Virus record (IMG/VR): IMGVR_UViG_3300048574_000531
Coordinates: 1 to 53,476 of that record
DNA: 53,476 nucleotides
Strand: one strand, 5' to 3'
DNA from: a virus
Taxonomy: Duplodnaviria; Caudoviricetes
Shown here one piece after another: positions 19,521 to 26,108 of the stretch. Numbering within the stretch: position 1 is the first letter of the stretch; each line of letters begins with the position of its first letter. The translations under genes were made by a program, and so were the position numbers. The notes under the pieces were generated by a model that made no database searches, had not been told where the DNA came from, and saw nothing but the letters and a program-made list of their open reading frames with translations.

Positions 19521-20017
19521 ATTTGCACAGCTTTCTTTTGAGCCCGCTTGATGGCGCGATCGATGGCCTTCTGGTACTCGGTGACGAAGGTATTGGTGGC
19601 GGCATCTATGTTCTGCTCGAGTGCGGGGCGCATGAAAGGCTGCGCGCGCGCATGCTCGTGCCCGAACTCGACAAATGCCCAGTAGCGAGTATCGCCACCG
19701 GGCCCGCCTGGCTCGGTTCCTTTTGGCCTTGACTTAGGAATTCGGGCGCCGCCCAGAACCCCAACGCGGAAACCAAGGTCGCCAGTTCGCTTGAACAGCC
19801 TGCCATTCCATCGCAATGTGATGTTCTGGCTGATGTCTGTTGCGGTGTCGGGATCGTCCAGGCGCTTGGCGTTGGCTTGCGCTGCTGCGCTAACCACCTG
19901 GGCGGCCTTGCGTAAAGCCGCTCGCCCACCCTTGCGCTTAACGTCATAGCTGACCGACTCAAGTTTGCCTAGCAAGCTATCCAAGCCGGTGATGGCAAAT
20001 TCGATGGTGTCAGCCAT
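19517..20017 (-). CDS. HK97 gp10-family tail-completion protein
   Basis: GLDSLLGKL...AALRKAA...YWAFVEFG...AQPFMRPA. Confidence 0.9.
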   Translation of the reverse strand: MADTIEFAITGLDSLLGKLESVSYDVKRKGGRAALRKAAQVVSAAAQANAKRLDDPDTATDISQNITLRWNGRLFKRTGDLGFRVGVLGGARIPKSRPKGTEPGGPGGDTRYWAFVEFGHEHARAQPFMRPALEQNIDAATNTFVTEYQKAIDRAIKRAQKKAVQI

Positions 20018-20627
20018 GGAACCTCCGAAACGCAAAGCTAGTGATCCCTTCCCGGCCAAGCTCGGATTCGGCCTGGTTCATTTCTGCCAGAGCGAACCCT
20101 TGACGCTCGCACCAACCGATGAAGCCATGGAGGCTGAAATACCAGCAATGCTCGCCCGGCTTGTAGTGCTTGGAGTGCAGGCAATCCAACTGGTCGCGGT
20201 AGATCGGCATGGATACGAACAACCATTCGCCGACATGATCCAGCAGCTGCTCCGGCTCCGGGATGTGCTCCAGGCTGTCCCAGCAGGTCACGGCCTCGGC
20301 ATGGTGTTTGTAGGGGTCGTAGTAGCGATCCTGAGCCTTGAGCCATGCCACGGCCTCCGGGTTCACGTCATAGCCCATCGCCTCGGCCTCAGTGACGAAG
20401 CGGCCACCGCCGATGCCGATATCCACCACCTGGCCGGAGAAGTGCCTGCGGACCAGATCGATACGTGCCCGGGTCAGCGCTTCGCCCATCGGGGTGGCAT
20501 CGAGGCCCTGGTATTTCTCGAAGTACGGCCCGGTGTAATCCATAGGAGGGCGCGGGTGAAAACCCATGCCCAACTCCTCAGACCAGAGCAGGCAGTCGGT
20601 CATGCCTTGAGGAAGCGAAACGGTCAT
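20010..20627 (-). CDS. Class I SAM-dependent methyltransferase
   Basis: VVDIGIGGG motif I, GYDVNP, VTCWDSLEHIPEP. Confidence 0.88.
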   Translation of the reverse strand: MTVSLPQGMTDCLLWSEELGMGFHPRPPMDYTGPYFEKYQGLDATPMGEALTRARIDLVRRHFSGQVVDIGIGGGRFVTEAEAMGYDVNPEAVAWLKAQDRYYDPYKHHAEAVTCWDSLEHIPEPEQLLDHVGEWLFVSMPIYRDQLDCLHSKHYKPGEHCWYFSLHGFIGWCERQGFALAEMNQAESELGREGITSFAFRRFHG

Positions 20628-20999: not shown

Positions 21000-21815
21000 C
21001 TACAATCGGTCCGCCCAAGCGGCAAAGCGTTGGTCATGATCGGCGATCCTTTTGTCGCAGGTATGCTGTTTCAGCGTGCATCGGCAGAAGTTGTCCGGCA
21101 CCGCGAAGGTGATGCGGGACAGGTCCATGCATTTGTCAGTGATATGTTCTGGCGAGTTAAAGCCGCCCTGCCCTCCGCAGATAATCAAGGCTGGCACTTT
21201 GGCGGCTATGGCGGCCGGTACGATCCAGCCAATGCCGCCGATTACCGCAGCGGCGTGTTGGAGCAGAGCTAGCAGTTGCTCAACCGGCAACTCGCCTTTG
21301 TGAAACTGGATGTCAGCAGGCGGCAGTGGATCAAGCGCCCATTCCTTTCCTGGCTCAAGATCGGCCACGGACACCACTTTGTAGCCCCTGTGGCGCATCT
21401 CGGCGGCAGCACTGGCGATGTATTCGGGCAGAGGATTGCGCGAGTCTGCCCGCCACTCAGCGCGCACCGTGGCAGGCCGCACCAGCGCATAGCGGCCCTC
21501 GACCGGAGAAGGTCCGAAGTCTGGTAGGTCGAACTCGCCCGGCTCGCAACGGAACGCCTTGCGCAGCCCCTGAACGATGGGCATTTGCCCGTAATGGATG
21601 CGCATCTGGCCGACGCCTACAGGGCGGTGCCATTCTTGCTCGCGCTGGATGTTGCGAAGCTGGGTGCGCAGTTGCGTGGTTGGTCGGACGCACTTAACTG
21701 GCAGGTCTTTCAGCAATTGCGGCCAAGGCGTTTCGACGTAGCAGTTCGGGTATTTCTTCAGAAAGGCGCGGATATAAACGCTGTCGCCCAAGCCTTGCAT
21801 CGACTTAATCAGCAC
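21000..21815 (-). CDS. Glycosyltransferase, GT9 (heptosyltransferase)-like
   Basis: N-terminal QGLGD; C-terminal LLALLQHAAAVIGGIG...AAIAAKVPALIICGG. Confidence 0.75.
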   Translation of the reverse strand: MLIKSMQGLGDSVYIRAFLKKYPNCYVETPWPQLLKDLPVKCVRPTTQLRTQLRNIQREQEWHRPVGVGQMRIHYGQMPIVQGLRKAFRCEPGEFDLPDFGPSPVEGRYALVRPATVRAEWRADSRNPLPEYIASAAAEMRHRGYKVVSVADLEPGKEWALDPLPPADIQFHKGELPVEQLLALLQHAAAVIGGIGWIVPAAIAAKVPALIICGGQGGFNSPEHITDKCMDLSRITFAVPDNFCRCTLKQHTCDKRIADHDQRFAAWADRL

Positions 21816-22418: not shown

Positions 22419-23177
22419 CTAGGCAGCTTGCGGATAGATCAGGCGGAGCTGTCCGTAGCGCTTGTATGCCGCAGTGCAGCGCGACACGAAGTCCTGGTAG
22501 TCCACGCAGCCATTGGCCAGAGCGGTGATGGCGATCAGTTGCGCCTCAACTGCCCGGAGTGCGTCATCCGCCAGGTATTGGTGAATCTTCTCCCCTGCTC
22601 TGCAGCGAGATTTTGCAGCTTCGTAAACCGGCTTCGGCAGCGCAACGCCATATACCCATTCGGCAGTAATTTTTCCGAACAGCGGCGGCGTTCCGCTGGC
22701 ATGCCCGGTAAACGGCATGCTGGTCAGCCGGCCGAGCGCCCTGTAGAACGGGTCGGCGAATCGCTTCTCCCATGTTGCCGCATCGGGCAGAGTCAGCAGG
22801 GCAACGATTTGCTCGTCGCTGTAGGTGATGGACTGCGACCGGATCATGGCCTTGATGTGGCGGTCGCATGCGCGGGCGAACTTGGGAGAAAGCCAGCGAG
22901 CGAACTCGATGGCAAGCTCTGGATGAATCCAGGTGCCGCCATAGCGGCCTTTGCGCACCTCCACTAAAAGGTCGGGATTCCGGCTTTTAAAAATCTCTGG
23001 ATCTTGCTCGGCAAGTTCGTCCAGAGCCTCGCGGATATACTCGGCGGTCTGCTCCGTATCGAGCCAGTGCTGCGGCCTTTTCCCGAAGCGCTTGGCTGCT
23101 TCGGTCGCATGAATCCACCCGTCACTAGTGAACCGGATAGCCTGGCCTTCGAAATCCATCGGGACGATGTTGCTCAT
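22419..23177 (-). CDS. KilA-N domain protein with P63C-like C-terminus
   Basis: DGWIHATEAAKRFGKRP.HWL...GGTWIHPELAIEFARWLSPKF; WEKRF...FY...FGKIT..WVY. Confidence 0.88.
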   Translation of the reverse strand: MSNIVPMDFEGQAIRFTSDGWIHATEAAKRFGKRPQHWLDTEQTAEYIREALDELAEQDPEIFKSRNPDLLVEVRKGRYGGTWIHPELAIEFARWLSPKFARACDRHIKAMIRSQSITYSDEQIVALLTLPDAATWEKRFADPFYRALGRLTSMPFTGHASGTPPLFGKITAEWVYGVALPKPVYEAAKSRCRAGEKIHQYLADDALRAVEAQLIAITALANGCVDYQDFVSRCTAAYKRYGQLRLIYPQAA

Positions 23178-23267
23178 GTCGTTACCTAGCTCATCAGGCG
23201 AATAGGAACGCAGCCGGGGCGAATGGATGAGCAACATCCGCCGTTCGAGGGCGACTCTAGGCTGCGT
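23177..23267 (-). ncRNA. c4-like leader RNA (element A, copy 2)
   Basis: Repeat of 19013-19103; loop GAUGUUGCUCAU is the exact complement of the first 12 nt of the KilA-N CDS. Confidence 0.78.
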
Positions 23268-23293
23268 GTTTGGCGCCCTTGCGGGCGAAGTCG

Positions 23294-23650
23294 TTACTGG
23301 CCGTCGGTTAGGCCATCGGAACAGCGCAGACGCCATTCACGGCGAGCGGTGGCATCGGTCTCTGCGCTGGTGATGTTGTAAACCCGGCCATCCCAAAGAA
23401 TTCGCCAGGTGTAGAGTTCCAGTCGATCCACCGGGAACCATCGGCAGTTGATGCGCGCCGTGGTTTCTGCTTGCTTGGCATCGGCTGCGATCAGTTCTCG
23501 ACCGGCCCCAGTCAACACCTCAGCGGGAACATCTGGACGACCTGAAAACAGAACTGTCTCCCAGGTGGTTGTCACTTCTCCCGTCACAGGATCTTGTGTA
23601 TGCACCTGTCGCTGGAACTCGATGCGGTGGCGCATGCGGTAGGCGAGCAT
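23294..23650 (-). CDS. Head closure protein (head-tail joining)
   Basis: MRHRIEFQ...DPVTGE...W...WRILWDGRVYNI. Confidence 0.9.
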   Translation of the reverse strand: MLAYRMRHRIEFQRQVHTQDPVTGEVTTTWETVLFSGRPDVPAEVLTGAGRELIAADAKQAETTARINCRWFPVDRLELYTWRILWDGRVYNITSAETDATARREWRLRCSDGLTDGQ

Positions 23651-23651
23651 G

Positions 23652-23858
23652 TCAGTCCCCGTAGAAATGATCTTTCACGGACTCGGGATGCCAGGCCCTG
23701 GCCGCATTGCCAGAGTAGGTTTTCGGGCACGCTTTGATGTCGTGATCCTTCGCACCGCAATAGGTGCAGCGGAGATTTGCGCGCCTGGCACTTCCCGAAT
23801 AGGTGCTTGGGCAGAGCGCTTTCGTATGTGCACTACTTCCGCAGTAGGAGCAGTACAT
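23652..23858 (-). CDS. Double CCHC zinc-knuckle protein
   Basis: CSYCGSSAHTKALC and CTYCGAKDHDIKAC, both CX2CX4HX4C. Confidence 0.8.
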   Translation of the reverse strand: MYCSYCGSSAHTKALCPSTYSGSARRANLRCTYCGAKDHDIKACPKTYSGNAARAWHPESVKDHFYGD

Positions 23859-24179
23859 TTAAACCCCCAGCCCGCAGCGGTACGGCATCAGCTTCACCTC
23901 GGCCGCCTTGCGCAGCGTCTCGATTTCATCAGGAGCGGCCTGGTAGTTCGCCTGGAGCAGCAGCAGAACGCCTACAGCCACGCTCGGCGGAAGTCCTGGC
24001 TCGCTGCTGGCTGCCTCGCTGCTCTCTTCGCAGTTGCACAGACCATCCAGGGATTGCCGCCACATGAACTGGCAGGCTTCGTCTTCAGCGCCATCCAGCA
24101 GCAACTGGATCTTGGCGTCATCCGAATCGTGGATCACGTCCAGAAATGCCTTGGCCGTCTCAAGCGGGATCAGGCTCAT
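23859..24179 (-). CDS. Head-tail connector (gp6/gp15-like)
   Basis: LETAKAFLDVIHDSDDAKIQLLL..A...VLLL....Y...LMPYR. Confidence 0.9.
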   Translation of the reverse strand: MSLIPLETAKAFLDVIHDSDDAKIQLLLDGAEDEACQFMWRQSLDGLCNCEESSEAASSEPGLPPSVAVGVLLLLQANYQAAPDEIETLRKAAEVKLMPYRCGLGV

Positions 24180-24726
24180 TCAGCGCTTCCTCTAATGGCC
24201 GGCGAACGAAACAGGTCAGCGCCGTTTCGCGGGTGCAGTTGATAATTTCGATGCTTGGGTTGTTGCGCTTCAGCCGCTCGAACTCGGCCGGCCATTCCGC
24301 GATCTTCCCGGCGCTCCCAAGCCCTCTCGGATGGTCTCCGTGCCAGTGCGATTGGCTATTGGTTTTCTGCATGTCATAGCCCAGCAGGATGATGCGCTTG
24401 GCGCCCTTGGCGATGGCCAAGGAAACCGCACCGCCTCCGGAGTTCCTGTAGTGCTCGATTCGTGCCGTCTTGATGCCGAAGCGGTTGGCGTTGAGGGTGA
24501 GTAGTTCGCCCTGGAAGGAGATCTTTGCCTCTGCGGCGTATCGCTCCCACCAGACCTTATCCATAGCCCATAGCGCATCAGCCCAGGGTGTCAGTCGGAA
24601 TGTGGTGTTCGTGCAGACGGACGCCCTCTTCGGCGCGGCGTCTCGCCACTCACGGACTCGCCCGCAGTCTTCAGCGGTGAGGCTTGGGCCGCTGGCGATG
24701 CAGACGGCGACTCGCCAGCCGATTGC
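24160..24726 (-). CDS. Cst-II/Maf-like transferase domain, probably translated by -1 frameshift from 24591-24878
   Basis: Open frame lacking a start codon before VCIASGPSL; later NSGGGAVSLA...GAKRIILLGYDM and IINCT. Confidence 0.75.
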   Translation of the reverse strand, partial: AIGWRVAVCIASGPSLTAEDCGRVREWRDAAPKRASVCTNTTFRLTPWADALWAMDKVWWERYAAEAKISFQGELLTLNANRFGIKTARIEHYRNSGGGAVSLAIAKGAKRIILLGYDMQKTNSQSHWHGDHPRGLGSAGKIAEWPAEFERLKRNNPSIEIINCTRETALTCFVRRPLEEALNEPDPA

Positions 24727-24878
24727 TTTGGGGTTTCATCTTCGATGATCCGGCACAGGCCGCGGGCTTCGAGCTGTTTGGCATGGCGAAGAGAAGCCGG
24801 ATATGGTTTGCTCTTCGCGTTCCTAACTTGGCCGCCATCCTCGTAGGAGCGCAGCGGTTTGATCATGACTTCGGACAT
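24591..24878 (-). CDS. Small post-capsid protein (frameshift donor)
   Basis: GAGG RBS; contains C CCA AAG at 24726-24732; low-complexity Pro/Ser/Arg tail after it. Confidence 0.8.
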   Translation of the reverse strand: MSEVMIKPLRSYEDGGQVRNAKSKPYPASLRHAKQLEARGLCRIIEDETPKQSAGESPSASPAAQASPLKTAGESVSGETPRRRGRPSARTPHSD

Positions 24879-24920
24879 AAGCACCTCGAAATCAGGGCCG
24901 GTTGCCCGGCCCCTTACCGG

Positions 24921-26108
24921 TTAGCTGGAAGTCAGCGACCCGCTAACAAACGCCTCAGGCCGATACACGGCAAACGCCAGTCGCTCTTCAGCGCGGATGG
25001 TTACCATGTTGTTTTCGAAGTCCTTGTCGTTCTCGGTGGAAACCAGAACCTCGATGTCCATGCGGTCGAAGATCTGAGCGCCAAGCGAGAACGCGCCGGT
25101 CAGGAACTCGTCCTGGCTGATTGCTTGGGTCTCCACCACTGGCAGACGCCAGAGGGTCGGAGTGGTGCCGCTCTGCGGGCTGCCAATGATGTAGCGGTTC
25201 TCGGCGTCCTTGGTCAGCTCGATCAGAGCCCAATCGATCGGGTTGAGCACGATGCCGCTGGCCGGGAACTCAGCCAGTTGTGCCTGCAAGATCGCCAAGC
25301 GGATGCGGTCGATTCGCTGCTCAGCCACCACGGATACGCCACCAGGCGGCGCATAGGCCTGAGCCTGCGGGATGATGCCGTGCAGGTTGGCGCCAGTGCC
25401 GTTGCCGTACAGCAGTTGACCTTCTTCCACCAGCATCAGGCCATAGCGGGCGCGGGCGTCGATGTAGCTCTGCAGAGCCGCAGCGTCATCCAGAATCTGA
25501 CGACTGGCCTTGAACAAGTGAGCGATGGTGCGAACCGGCGCATTCTCCAGTTCGAAGGTCAGTTCGGAGTACGGCTTCTGAGTGCCTTCGGAGACCGGTG
25601 CGGCGTTGTTGGTGAAGCCAGTCTCACGGACGTATTCGATGGAGTTGCTGTCGGTAGTTCCCGGGGCCACGAGATCGCGAATGGTCAGGCGGCGCTGCGG
25701 CGCAGCGACGAGGCCAGGACGACGATCAGGAGCAACCAGGGCACCACCCGAGCCGTCGATGGAAGTGATGGCCGAGCGCGGCATGGAGACGCGATGCGAG
25801 CCACGAAGAGAACTGGAAACACCCTTCTCTTTCAGGCTGTCCGCCACCAGTTGACCAGCGGTCTTCGGCGCATCTTCGCCGTGTTCGCGCTTCTCGCTGG
25901 CCAGCATGGCCTGCTCGGCTGCACTCAGGCGTGCCTGCAGTTCGCCCTGGACGGTCAGCAGTTCGTCGACCTTAGCGCGGGTTTCCTTGTTCATCTCGCC
26001 AAAGTTGGCGATCTGGGTGTTGACTTGTTCGGCCTGGGCCTTGATCTGGTCGCCGACCTGCTTGAGGCTGGTGTTCAGTTCGCCGATTTGTTTTTCGAAG
26101 TCGCTCAT
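24921..26108 (-). CDS. Major capsid protein, HK97 family
   Basis: Coiled-coil delta domain; RRLTIRDL, VSEGTQKP, LLYGNGTG.NL.GI, NMVTIRAEERLA. Confidence 0.97.
   Translation of the reverse strand: MSDFEKQIGELNTSLKQVGDQIKAQAEQVNTQIANFGEMNKETRAKVDELLTVQGELQARLSAAEQAMLASEKREHGEDAPKTAGQLVADSLKEKGVSSSLRGSHRVSMPRSAITSIDGSGGALVAPDRRPGLVAAPQRRLTIRDLVAPGTTDSNSIEYVRETGFTNNAAPVSEGTQKPYSELTFELENAPVRTIAHLFKASRQILDDAAALQSYIDARARYGLMLVEEGQLLYGNGTGANLHGIIPQAQAYAPPGGVSVVAEQRIDRIRLAILQAQLAEFPASGIVLNPIDWALIELTKDAENRYIIGSPQSGTTPTLWRLPVVETQAISQDEFLTGAFSLGAQIFDRMDIEVLVSTENDKDFENNMVTIRAEERLAFAVYRPEAFVSGSLTSS

What the first reader, a model, noticed from the sequence alone, without database searches (positions are those of the whole stretch)
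24160..24878. Unannotated -1 frameshift fusing the small post-capsid protein to a Cst-II/Maf-like transferase
Seen: the 134-aa ORF (24160-24564) extends upstream through GWRVAVCIASGPSL to a TGA with no start codon. The overlapping gene 24591-24878 has an in-frame X XXY YYZ heptamer, C CCA AAG (24726-24732), exactly where this -1 frame opens. An 8-bp stem GCTGGCGA/TCGCCAGC (24691-24719) starts 6 nt downstream. Known: A AAG heptamers with a 3' hairpin promote -1 shifts, and G.GPSL ... SG ... G.K.I.L.G.D is the pattern of GT42 Cst-II and Maf/DUF115 proteins. Inference: the phage makes a short protein and a longer form carrying a sugar-transferase domain at a fixed ratio, possibly tethering the enzyme to the capsid.
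Basis: partly seen in the sequence, partly recalled or inferred. Interest (0 to 1): 0.88.

Follow-up and report, generated by a model that had tools for sequence, protein, structure and literature searches.

The report
Conserved phage frameshift joining two proteins
A small gene after the capsid gene of this Pseudomonas prophage very probably uses a programmed ribosomal slip to make a short protein and a longer one carrying an enzyme-like domain, an arrangement conserved in many related phages but not annotated in the database records examined.

Summary
On the minus strand a 95-aa ORF (24878-24591) follows the HK97-type capsid gene. The enzyme-like domain lies in its -1 frame, which opens at 24735 just after a TGA. 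That frame has no ATG/GTG/TTG before Met 24564. An in-frame C_CCA_AAG (24732-24726) is followed after 6 nt by an 8-bp hairpin.

Comparative evidence makes a programmed -1 frameshift the best reading (about 0.85):
- Of 180 distinct related loci, 133 keep the same -1 split, 84 of them without any start codon in the domain frame.
- All share C_CCN at one fixed place. In six loci the domain frame's stop abuts it.
- The hairpin is specific to split loci and shows compensatory changes.
- Natural in-frame fusions of the same two parts exist: 2 loci and 7 database proteins.
- Starting at Met 24564 would delete three core strands of a confident AlphaFold model.

The enzyme domain has an MptE-like (DUF115/Cst-II) fold; its activity is unknown. 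The shared N-terminal module is DUF7210-like, is found next to the capsid gene, and is predicted to bind the capsid protein. No experiment was available, and none of 10 literature searches found a description of this frameshift.

The parts
24591..24878 (-). 0-frame ORF (D3 orf6.5 homologue), 95 aa. This is the short product: a DUF7210-like N-domain followed by a 45-aa tail with a basic, AT-hook-like C-terminus. An SD-like GAGG lies upstream of the ATG.
   Evidence: phrog_7993 E 7.9e-36; N-domain HMM E 1.2e-17
24729..24878 (-). Part shared by both products (residues 1-50). It is a small folded beta/alpha module related to Pfam DUF7210.
   Evidence: 19 of 49 homologous fragments hit PF23843, though the window's own does not. 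In the AF2 model of a natural fusion, residues 1-41 have pLDDT about 94. Complex prediction with the capsid protein scored 0.70 against controls of 0.00.
24736..24738 (-). TGA that closes the -1 (domain) frame one codon before the slip site. It separates the upstream in-frame GTG from the domain.
24726..24732 (-). Slippery heptamer C_CCA_AAG (P49-K50 in the 0 frame; CCC AAA in the -1 frame).
   Evidence: It was the most efficient heptamer in E. coli reporters, up to 54% with the IS3 pseudoknot (PMC4066793, passages).
24691..24719 (-). Stimulatory stem-loop: 8-bp stem, 13-nt loop, 6-nt spacer after the heptamer. The 3' arm is made of the codons of the I-A-S-G nucleotide-binding motif.
   Evidence: z -2.52. 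Family-wide helix: 86.9% of cells paired against 23-57% when slid, with compensatory pairs. The helix is specific to split loci.
24160..24726 (-). -1 frame read after the slip (188 codons plus TGA). It encodes the MptE-like/DUF115-fold enzyme-like domain. The predicted trans-frame product is 50 + 188 = 238 aa.
   Evidence: phrog_4603 E 2.3e-67; AF2 pLDDT 94.9
24591..24725 (-). Dual-coding overlap. The 0 frame (tail of the short product) and the -1 frame (strand 1 to strand 2 of the enzyme domain) are both kept open.
   Evidence: The 0 frame stays open at least 70 nt past the ASG motif in 132 of 133 split loci. It closes at +16 in 18 of 31 stand-alone and 2 of 2 fused loci. The Leu codon of GPSL is never NTG before A in the 133 split loci.
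24562..24564 (-). ATG used as the start of the '134-aa' gene in most database records. It is an internal Met58 of the domain.
   Evidence: A start here would remove strand 1, helix 1, strand 2, helix 2 and strand 3 of the AF2 model.
24921..26108 (-). HK97-type major capsid protein gene immediately upstream (context; predicted binding partner of the N-domain).
   Evidence: Pfam Phage_capsid E 1.5e-62; synteny
23859..24179 (-). Head-tail adaptor gene. Its start overlaps the end of the -1 frame by 20 nt (context).
   Evidence: phrog_40 E 1.9e-15

Best explanation
The two ORFs form one recoded gene. Ribosomes start at ATG 24878 and translate the 50-residue DUF7210-like module. At C_CCA_AAG (24732-24726) they are paused by the hairpin 6 nt downstream.

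Most ribosomes continue in the 0 frame and make the 95-aa short protein, which is the module plus a basic tail. A fraction slips back one base and reads GCA (24726-24724) onwards. These make a 238-aa protein in which the same module is joined to a 188-residue MptE-like (DUF115/Cst-II-fold) enzyme domain.

The shared module is inferred to dock on the major capsid protein. On that reading the slip sets the ratio of a plain capsid-binding protein to an enzyme-carrying one.

Shown here: the sequence anatomy, its conservation, the fold, and the existence of natural in-frame fusions. Inferred: that the slip occurs and at what rate, that the module binds the capsid protein, and what the enzyme does.
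For: 1. No other route to the domain.
- The -1 frame has no ATG/GTG/TTG from its opening at 24735 to Met 24564.
- The residues before that Met are the most conserved of the family: A14, S15, G16, S18, N43 and D59 are invariant in 106 sequences.
- Those residues form strands 1 to 3 of a confident model (pLDDT 94.9, pTM 0.92).

2. Family-wide -1 split. The 180 distinct loci sort as follows:
[quoted passage not shown] Of these, 84 have no start codon in the domain frame.
- 31 have no N-module and always have their own start.
- 2 are in-frame fusions, 1 is the odd L128, 4 are unclassified and 9 are truncated.

3. Fixed slip site.
- 109 of 111 split loci have CCC in the domain frame. It lies 36 nt before the ASG motif in most of them (33-42 nt in nearly all).
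- The preceding 0-frame codon ends in C in 85 of 85 distinct sequences.
- The domain-frame stop abuts this CCC in L066, L068, L078, L099, L102 and L103.
- Site types: CCA_AAG 26, CCT_TTG 4, the remainder C_CCN (Pro codon totals CCT 39, CCA 28, CCC 13, CCG 5).
- Reporter data in E. coli rank C_CC.A_AA.G first among heptamers and C_CC.Y among the few active tetramers (PMC4066793, passages).

4. Hairpin.
- An 11-bp helix is 86.9% paired, against 23-57% when slid.
- 11 cells change on both sides, a value reached by 0 of 500 shuffles. Pair 20-54 is GC 34, CG 5, AU 3, GU 3.
- Arms pair at 8.5 of 11 positions in 60 split loci, 7.9 in 10 D3-like loci and 4.1 in 21 stand-alone loci.
- The helix starts 5 nt after CCN in 28 of 41 tetramer loci and 6 nt after the heptamer in 6 of 12 heptamer loci.

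5. Natural fusions. An HMM of the 0-frame module hits the N-termini of P0039, P0066, P0061, P0049, P0021, P0031 and P0023 (E 3e-9 to 6e-5). L209 and L221 are in-frame fusions at the DNA level.

6. The D3-like GTG/TTG candidate start is not conserved. It is absent in L014 and L027 and is cut off by TGA in the window. GenBank records place the start at three different codons, including ATC in D3.

7. Capsid link.
- A capsid gene ends less than 700 nt upstream in 130 of 133 split loci, 2 of 2 fused loci and 1 of 31 stand-alone loci.
- The complex model supports binding but does not show it. Score 0.70, best of 3 controls 0.00. The mark was reached by 58 of 80 solved complexes and 2 of 110 mismatched pairs; these counts hold only roughly because my own alignments were used. 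The runs agree in 100% of contacts, and the partner's pLDDT is at least 82.
Against: - No protein, ribosome-profiling or reporter data were available, so the slip and its efficiency are inferred.
- The heptamer by itself is no commoner than chance.
- In the D3-like phages proper, a GTG or TTG 8 codons upstream of the slip site could start the domain frame independently. PMG1 is annotated that way.
- The D3-like hairpin is weaker than in the rest of the family. The uninterrupted helix has a median of 5 bp, against 10 bp in tetramer loci.
- The covariation counts are on related sequences and are not probabilities.
- The N-module HMM was built from the split loci it then classifies. Only its hits on fused proteins and fused loci are independent.
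- Against stoichiometric capsid decoration: the passages read of the D3 capsid cryo-EM paper (PMC12749128) describe the virion shell as capsid protein only. They contain none of the searched terms gp7, orf7, gp6.5, glycos- or 'extra density'.
- Pairwise BLASTP between P0002 and three fused proteins was not significant.
Confidence: 0.85

Rival explanations
1. There is no frameshift. The domain ORF is translated on its own, either from Met 24564 (the 134-aa protein of most annotations) or from a non-canonical codon such as ATC. The small upstream ORF is then an unrelated overlapping gene.
For: Most GenBank D3-like records annotate the 134-aa ORF. D3 itself uses an ATC start. PMG1 uses a GTG start that gives 198 aa, and protein cluster P0003 holds 350 member sequences called from the corresponding upstream start. 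Stand-alone homologues with their own ATG exist: 31 of 180 loci, PAJU2 ORF010 and P1 PmgO.
Against: A start at Met 24564 deletes the invariant ASGPS loop and three core strands. The window has no ATG/GTG/TTG in the frame, and the GTG is cut off by TGA. 84 of 133 split loci have no start at all. This reading does not explain the fixed C_CCN, the hairpin specific to split loci, the avoidance of 0-frame stops, or the in-frame fusions.
Confidence: 0.07
2. The gene is broken in this provirus. A single-base indel or assembly error split an originally in-frame fusion, leaving a pseudogene.
For: In-frame fusions of the same two modules exist elsewhere. One locus (L128) does look degraded, with the N-module itself out of frame.
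Against: The same -1 relation at the same codon is found in 133 of 180 distinct loci. They come from two collections, including one genome per species, and the domain is down to 43% identical. Both frames are kept open where needed. On the FastTree the split state spans nearly the whole clade and fusions are rare: two fused groups lie inside that clade and L221 just outside it (at least 3 changes on the tree; starred branches force only 1).
Confidence: 0.02
3. The two frames are joined by another recoding route: transcriptional slippage that adds or removes a base in the mRNA, or a +2 or bypass event rather than tandem -1 tRNA slippage.
For: In most relatives the site is only a C_CCN tetramer without a second slippery codon, so the exact mechanics there are not canonical.
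Against: No homopolymer run is longer than 3-4 nt at the site. The window carries the best-characterised bacterial -1 heptamer with a correctly spaced hairpin. C_CC.Y tetramers with a stimulator 5 nt downstream do shift -1 in E. coli reporters (PMC4066793, passages).
Confidence: 0.03

Closest known systems
Programmed -1 frameshifts in phage morphogenesis genes: lambda G/GT tail assembly chaperone, T7 10A/10B (both recalled), and the Lactobacillus phage A2 major head protein (title seen in the reference list of PMC10885494)
   Same: There are two overlapping ORFs in a late structural operon. A slippery site and a downstream structure give two proteins with a common N-terminus, presumably at a set ratio. 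The arrangement is conserved while the sequences diverge.
   Different: The gene family and position differ: this is a DUF7210-like gene directly after the capsid gene. The extension is a complete enzyme-fold domain, not a structural extension. The 3' arm of the hairpin is built from the codons of that domain's nucleotide-binding loop. The 0-frame tail is also kept open, so the overlap is dual-coding.
C_CC.A_AA.G heptamer and Z_ZZ.N tetramer signals characterised in E. coli reporters with IS3/IS911 stimulators (Sharma et al. 2014, PMC4066793; abstract and passages read)
   Same: The window's heptamer is the top-ranked motif. Relatives use C_CC.Y, one of the few active tetramers, with a stimulator 5 nt downstream, as in the reporter constructs.
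   Different: The stimulator here is a simple GC-rich hairpin, and no pseudoknot was looked for. The host is Pseudomonas and other Proteobacteria, not E. coli. Efficiency has not been measured.
Stand-alone homologues of the enzyme domain: phage P1 PmgO ('putative morphogenic function'), P7 HdmB, and PAJU2 ORF010 (annotated 'structural protein'). PHROG 4603 is labelled 'alpha-2,3-sialyltransferase'.
   Same: They share the domain, at 31-39% identity over about 92% of P0001, and they sit in late or morphogenetic gene neighbourhoods. The PAJU2 label hints that the protein is in virions.
   Different: They have their own start codon, no DUF7210 module and no frameshift. Their names are the annotators' labels, and none was tested here.
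MptE (archaeal 6-hydroxymethylpterin diphosphokinase, PDB 8sd5), Cst-II (GT42 sialyltransferase, PDB 1ro7), and Maf/DUF115 proteins
   Same: They share a Rossmann-like fold with an N-terminal G-x-G/S-P-S-L-type loop. Foldseek gives probability 1.00 to 8sd5 (TM 0.51) for the window's model. For the L221 model it gives probability 1.00 to both 8sd5 and 1ro7.
   Different: Identity is 10-16%. The window protein is below the Pfam threshold. The family has its own invariant motifs, such as H-W-H-G-D-H. The substrate and chemistry (sugar transfer or diphosphoryl transfer) are unknown.

Membership tests
Programmed -1 ribosomal frameshift signal (bacterial/phage type) | A downstream ORF in the -1 frame overlaps the upstream ORF and lacks its own usable start. 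| tested here: met
   Also 84 of 133 split relatives have no start.
Programmed -1 ribosomal frameshift signal (bacterial/phage type) | An X_XXY_YYZ (or Z_ZZN) slippery motif lies in the 0 frame inside the overlap. | tested here: met
   C_CCA_AAG at 24732-24726. C_CCN is present in 109 of 111 split loci.
Programmed -1 ribosomal frameshift signal (bacterial/phage type) | A stimulatory structure lies 5-9 nt downstream and is conserved with covariation. | tested here: met
Programmed -1 ribosomal frameshift signal (bacterial/phage type) | The trans-frame protein is observed, and shifting depends on the motif. | not testable with these tools
   This needs a western blot or MS and a reporter assay. 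No RNA or proteome data were found (literature).
Pfam PF01973 MptE-like (includes DUF115/Maf) | The sequence scores above the Pfam gathering threshold. | tested here: not met
   P0001 scores 16.1 bits against 34.6, E 0.01, and matches only 24 residues. 56 of 106 relatives hit at E <= 0.01, best 4.2e-6.
Pfam PF01973 MptE-like (includes DUF115/Maf) | The fold matches a solved member. | tested here: met
   8sd5_B: E 5.3e-4, probability 1.00, TMq 0.51 over 196 columns. Confirmed with the L221 model.
GT42 sialyltransferase (Cst-II) | Sequence or fold similarity, together with the catalytic residues for CMP-sugar transfer. | tested here: inconclusive
   No GT42 Pfam hit among the 106 relatives; only 3 families were returned. 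1ro7_C has E 3.8e-3 and TMq 0.45 for the L221 model. It is not among the rows listed (through rank 50) for the window's own model. Catalytic residues were not compared.
Pfam PF23843 DUF7210 (N-terminal module) | A sequence match to the family model. | tested here: inconclusive
   The window's 50-aa module has no hit at E <= 0.1. 19 of 49 homologous modules hit, best 3.8e-7. The Atlas look-alikes are DUF7210/DUF7302 clusters, with scores under 0.9, so they are leads only.
Capsid decoration protein | The protein is ordered and stoichiometric on the mature capsid. | tested here: inconclusive
   The complex prediction passes and synteny is strict. The passages read of the D3 virion cryo-EM paper mention no additional protein. 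The whole text and the maps were not examined.

The most novel reading that the evidence does not exclude
The DUF7210-like module is a portable capsid-protein-docking tag, and the frameshift meters out a minority of tags that carry an MptE/Cst-II-fold enzyme. That enzyme would modify the capsid protein, or be carried in the particle, during head assembly.

The short form, with its AT-hook-like basic tail, would be a second functional product of the same overlap. If so, this is a widespread and so far undescribed way for HK97-type phages of Proteobacteria to target an enzyme to their own capsid at a ratio set by translation. The RNA stimulator would be written into the codons of the enzyme's active-site loop.
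Probability: 0.35. Interest if true: 0.85.

Novelty: new member of a known kind. Interest (0 to 1): 0.72.

Why it matters
- **Annotation.** The gene is mis-annotated across public phage records. Its start is placed at three different codons. Among the records examined the called product was 134 aa in eight, 152 aa in two and 198 aa in one, often labelled 'alpha-2,3-sialyltransferase', and none was annotated as a joined CDS. Recognising the frameshift gives the correct 238-aa product for a model phage family (D3) and for over a hundred related proviruses.
- **Recoding biology.** This adds a deeply conserved family that uses both the strongest bacterial heptamer and the weak C_CC.Y tetramer. Hairpin strength runs inversely to motif strength, and hairpin position shifts with the A-site codon. 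That makes it a natural series for studying how motif and stimulator trade off.
- **Phage biology.** It points to an enzyme physically linked to a module predicted to bind the capsid protein. This is a testable lead to virion modification.

Tried and rejected
- **Pairwise BLASTP.** P0002 against fused proteins P0021, P0049 and P0039 was not significant. The relation appeared only with a profile.
- **PHROG scan of ten long or fused homologues.** No family was found for their N-termini.
- **PDB sequence search with the family profile.** Nothing was found below E 0.48.
- **The look-up of encoding contigs.** DNA of in-frame fusions was obtained instead from a second viral-contig scan.
- **Sequencing runs.** No RNA holder was listed and no run held more than 0.19 of the words.
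- **Literature.** None returned a paper describing this frameshift, DUF7210, or a phage DUF115/MptE frameshift.
  - PRFect (PMC10885494): only passages were read, and none of Pseudomonas, transferase or CCCAAAG occurs in the text.
  - The supplementary tables of Sharma et al. list 5 prophage clusters in Enterobacteriaceae. They could not be opened and may bear on novelty, as may the GeneTack frameshift clusters named in that paper.
  - The PAJU2 paper behind the 'structural protein' label was not found or read.
- **Rejected: sequencing error or pseudogene.** See the rival explanations.
- **Rejected: the D3-like GTG/TTG as the conserved start.** It derives from 0-frame Leu-Cys codons and is lost or blocked in the window, L014 and L027.
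There is no Pfam hit at 1e-3, and the PHROG is of unknown function.
- **Stand-alone loci.** The neighbouring genes of stand-alone loci were listed but not annotated.
- **Unused jobs.** The 'viral' fold library and the search of protein representatives were not used.
Full report
**Setting.** The window is a complete 53,476-base provirus record. The region lies in the head module on the minus strand. In order it holds the portal gene, a ClpP-type protease gene and the HK97-type capsid gene (24921-26108, Pfam Phage_capsid E 1.5e-62). Then come a 95-aa ORF (24878-24591), the ORF in question, and a head-tail adaptor gene (24179-23859). The DNA is 77-82% identical to Pseudomonas phage D3 and 18 other D3-like phages across this stretch. 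The two ORFs correspond to D3 orf6.5 and orf7.

**Observation.**
- The frame of the 134-aa ORF is open for 191 codons back to 24735.
- It is closed there by TGA (24738-24736).
- It holds no ATG, GTG or TTG before Met 24564.
- C_CCA_AAG (24732-24726) is in the frame of the upstream ORF, as P49-K50.
- An 8-bp stem (24719-24712 with 24698-24691) starts 6 nt later. It folds at -19.7 kcal/mol, z -2.52.
- The heptamer alone is as common as chance would give: 8 copies against 6.6 expected.

**The domain needs the upstream residues.** P0001, the stop-to-stop translation, matches PHROG 4603 from residue 13 to 189, covering profile positions 1-177 of 178 (E 2.3e-67). The database holds 1,815 homologues, and those fetched begin shortly before the C-I-A-S-G-P-S-L motif or directly at its A-S-G-P-S-L part (P0026, P0104), never at an internal Met as the 134-aa ORF would. 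The invariant columns A14, S15, G16, S18, N43 and D59 all lie before Met58, which is ATG 24564. An AlphaFold2 model built on 106 sequences is confident (pLDDT 94.9, pTM 0.92). It places strand 1 at residues 9-13, so a start at Met58 would delete strand 1, helix 1, strand 2, helix 2 and strand 3. The 134-aa gene of most database records is therefore a truncation. GenBank records disagree on the start: ATC in D3, GTG in PMG1, and ATG elsewhere. None of the 14 records examined carries a joined CDS.

**The split is a property of the family.** I collected loci from viral contigs and from one genome per species. That gave 216 loci with the motif, 180 of them distinct over 400 nt. I built a profile of the 0-frame N-terminal module from 56 distinct split loci. 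The loci then sort as follows.

| Class | Distinct loci |
|---|---|
| Module one base ahead of the domain frame (needs a -1 slip) | 133 |
| No module, own start codon | 31 |
| In-frame fusion (L209, L221) | 2 |
| No module hit and no start | 4 |
| L128, whose module is itself out of frame | 1 |
| Cut by the contig end | 9 |

Of the 133 split loci, 84 have no start codon anywhere in the open part of the domain frame. The 49 that have one are mostly D3-like. There a GTG or TTG arises from the 0-frame Leu-Cys codons 8 codons before the slip site. It varies with the synonymous Leu base, is missing in L014 and L027, and in the window is followed by TGA. Classifying split loci with this profile is circular. 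The profile's independent result is that it finds the N-termini of seven longer database proteins (E 3e-9 to 6e-5) and of no other session protein except P0002, and that it finds L209 and L221 in frame. On a FastTree of 187 domain sequences the split state spans nearly the whole clade. Fusions need at least 3 changes on the tree, though starred branches force only 1. Stand-alone forms are the distant outgroup plus a few nested clades. This tree is quick and has weak deep support.

**Slip site.** In 109 of 111 split loci of the first set a CCC codon stands in the domain frame.
- It lies 36 nt before the ASG motif in most of them (33-42 nt in nearly all).
- In all 85 distinct sequences the preceding 0-frame codon ends in C, giving C_CCN.
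- In six loci the domain-frame stop lies directly against this CCC, so the change of frame cannot happen earlier.
- The D3-like group, the window and L055-L057 extend it to C_CCA_AAG (26 sequences). Four sequences have C_CCT_TTG. The rest have a non-slippery next codon.
- Sharma et al. 2014 (PMC4066793; abstract and passages read) measured C_CC.A_AA.G as the most efficient heptamer in E. coli, 54% with the IS3 pseudoknot. They found C_CC.U and C_CC.C among the six tetramers clearly active with a stimulator placed 5 nt downstream.

**Hairpin.** In the tetramer loci the codons G-R-W-R (GGC CGC TGG CG) pair with the codons of I-A-S-G-P (CG CCA GCG GCC).
- On a 53-sequence alignment the 11-bp helix is 86.9% paired, against 23-57% for slid partners. 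It has 11 cells changed on both sides, a value reached by 0 of 500 shuffles.
- Pair 20-54 occurs as GC, CG, AU and GU, and pair 23-51 as GC, AU and GU. These counts come from related sequences and are not probabilities.
- The arms pair at 8.5 of 11 positions in split loci and at 4.1 of 11 in stand-alone loci of similar G+C. Mean MFE z-scores are -2.36 and -0.27.
- G-R-W is not kept in homologues with their own start or in fusions. This points to an RNA-level constraint.
- The helix begins 5 nt after CCN in 28 of 41 tetramer loci and 6 nt after the heptamer in 6 of 12 heptamer loci. Its uninterrupted length has a median of 10 bp in tetramer loci and 5 bp in heptamer loci. A weak motif thus goes with a strong hairpin and the reverse, and the helix moves with the A-site codon.

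**The 0-frame tail is also protected.** After the motif the 0 frame stays open at least 70 nt in 132 of 133 split loci. In 18 of 31 stand-alone and 2 of 2 fused loci it closes at +16. The cause is the Leu codon of G-P-S-L. It is CTC or CTT in 130 of the 133 split loci, the other three having GCC, GTC or GTT at that position, and none has NTG before A. NTG before A occurs in 18 of 31 stand-alone loci, where it creates TGA. The tails end in K/R-rich clusters in 83 of 105 distinct sequences, and 21 contain G-R-P. The short product therefore looks functional too, although part of its sequence merely mirrors the conserved domain frame.

**What the parts are.**
- *Enzyme domain.* The best PDB fold match is M. 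jannaschii HPPK (MptE, 8sd5; E 5.3e-4, probability 1.00, TMq 0.51). The model of the natural fusion L221 (pLDDT 89.3) also matches Cst-II (1ro7_C; E 3.8e-3, probability 1.00, TMq 0.45) and SteA. Pfam MptE-like is hit by 56 of 106 relatives at E <= 0.01. The window's own protein is below threshold. The family profile found no PDB match at the sequence level.
- *N-module.* It is a folded beta/alpha unit; residues 1-41 of L221 have pLDDT about 94. It is related to Pfam DUF7210: 19 of 49 modules hit, best 3.8e-7. The Atlas look-alikes agree but score under 0.9, so they are leads only.

**Link to the capsid.** A homologue of the window's capsid protein ends less than 700 nt upstream in 130 of 133 split and 2 of 2 fused loci, but in only 1 of 31 stand-alone loci. 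The complex model supports binding but does not show it.
- It used residues 100-395 of the capsid protein and the 50-aa module, each as a 42-row alignment.
- The score was 0.70 and the best of 3 controls 0.00.
- The mark was reached by 58 of 80 solved complexes and 2 of 110 mismatched pairs. These counts hold only roughly, because my own alignments were used.
- The runs agree in 100% of contacts, and the partner's pLDDT is at least 82.
- The contacts involve capsid residues 230-247, which include invariant Q231, G235, G237, N241 and G244, and module residues 10-14.

Against an ordered decoration role, the D3 capsid cryo-EM paper (PMC12749128) shows no sign of an extra protein in the passages I read. 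They describe a virion shell built of capsid protein, and none of the searched terms gp7, orf7, gp6.5, glycos- or 'extra density' occurs. A transient, low-copy or disordered association would escape icosahedral averaging. PAJU2 ORF010, a stand-alone homologue, is labelled 'structural protein' and P1 PmgO 'putative morphogenic function'. These are annotators' labels that I could not trace to data.

**Novelty.** Ten literature searches found no description of this frameshift. The mechanism is of a well-known kind. The gene family, the enzyme payload, the dual-coding overlap, and a stimulator written into the active-site codons are the new elements.

**Verdict.** Confidence in the frameshift is 0.85, in capsid docking of the module about 0.5, and in any specific enzymatic activity low.

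Noticed in passing
window 24895-24913 (minus strand): A GC-rich hairpin (GGGCCGG, GCAA loop, CCGGCCC) lies between the capsid gene stop and the start of the 95-aa ORF. The PMG1 record annotates the equivalent as a putative rho-independent terminator. It may lower expression of the recoded gene relative to the capsid protein.
   Followed up: partly
window 23652-23858 (minus strand): A 68-aa ORF with two CCHC zinc-knuckle-like repeats lies between the adaptor and head-completion genes. It has only a weak Pfam hit (AIR2-like_ZnK4, E 3.8e-4, below cut-off) and a weak PHROG hit of unknown function.
   Followed up: partly
window 22419-23336 (minus strand): A KilA-N plus P63C domain protein (E 1.2e-20 and 5.9e-13) is inserted within the head-tail gene block, as D3 orf11 is.
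   Followed up: no
window 20010-20627 and 21000-21815 (minus strand): A methyltransferase (Methyltransf_23, E 5.1e-12; phrog_6564) lies among the structural genes, together with a 271-aa protein of unknown function (phrog_6804, no Pfam hit).
   Followed up: partly
L128 (Neopusillimonas chromosome locus), about 2320-2500: This is the only locus where the N-module is itself out of frame with the rest of the small ORF. The prophage copy is probably decaying.
   Followed up: no
L001 (phage D3, AF165214.2) locus 1985; L006 (PMG1) locus 447: The deposited start of D3 orf7 is an ATC codon, and PMG1_0008 starts at a GTG inside orf6.5. The same gene has three incompatible annotations across records.
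   Followed up: yes
Atlas look-alikes of P0002 residues 1-50: The N-module's predicted fold also aligns with the N-terminus of a 352-aa Glycos_transf_1 cluster and a 369-aa viral cluster (TM 0.80 over 45 residues). It also aligns with Rho_N/L9_N/DUF7210 small proteins. The module may therefore be attached to other payloads. These are leads only.
   Followed up: no
L061 (viral contig), about 2416-2521: This is the one stand-alone locus that still sits directly after a capsid gene (72% identical to the window's). It has its own ATG and no N-module. It is a natural comparison for what the module adds.
   Followed up: no
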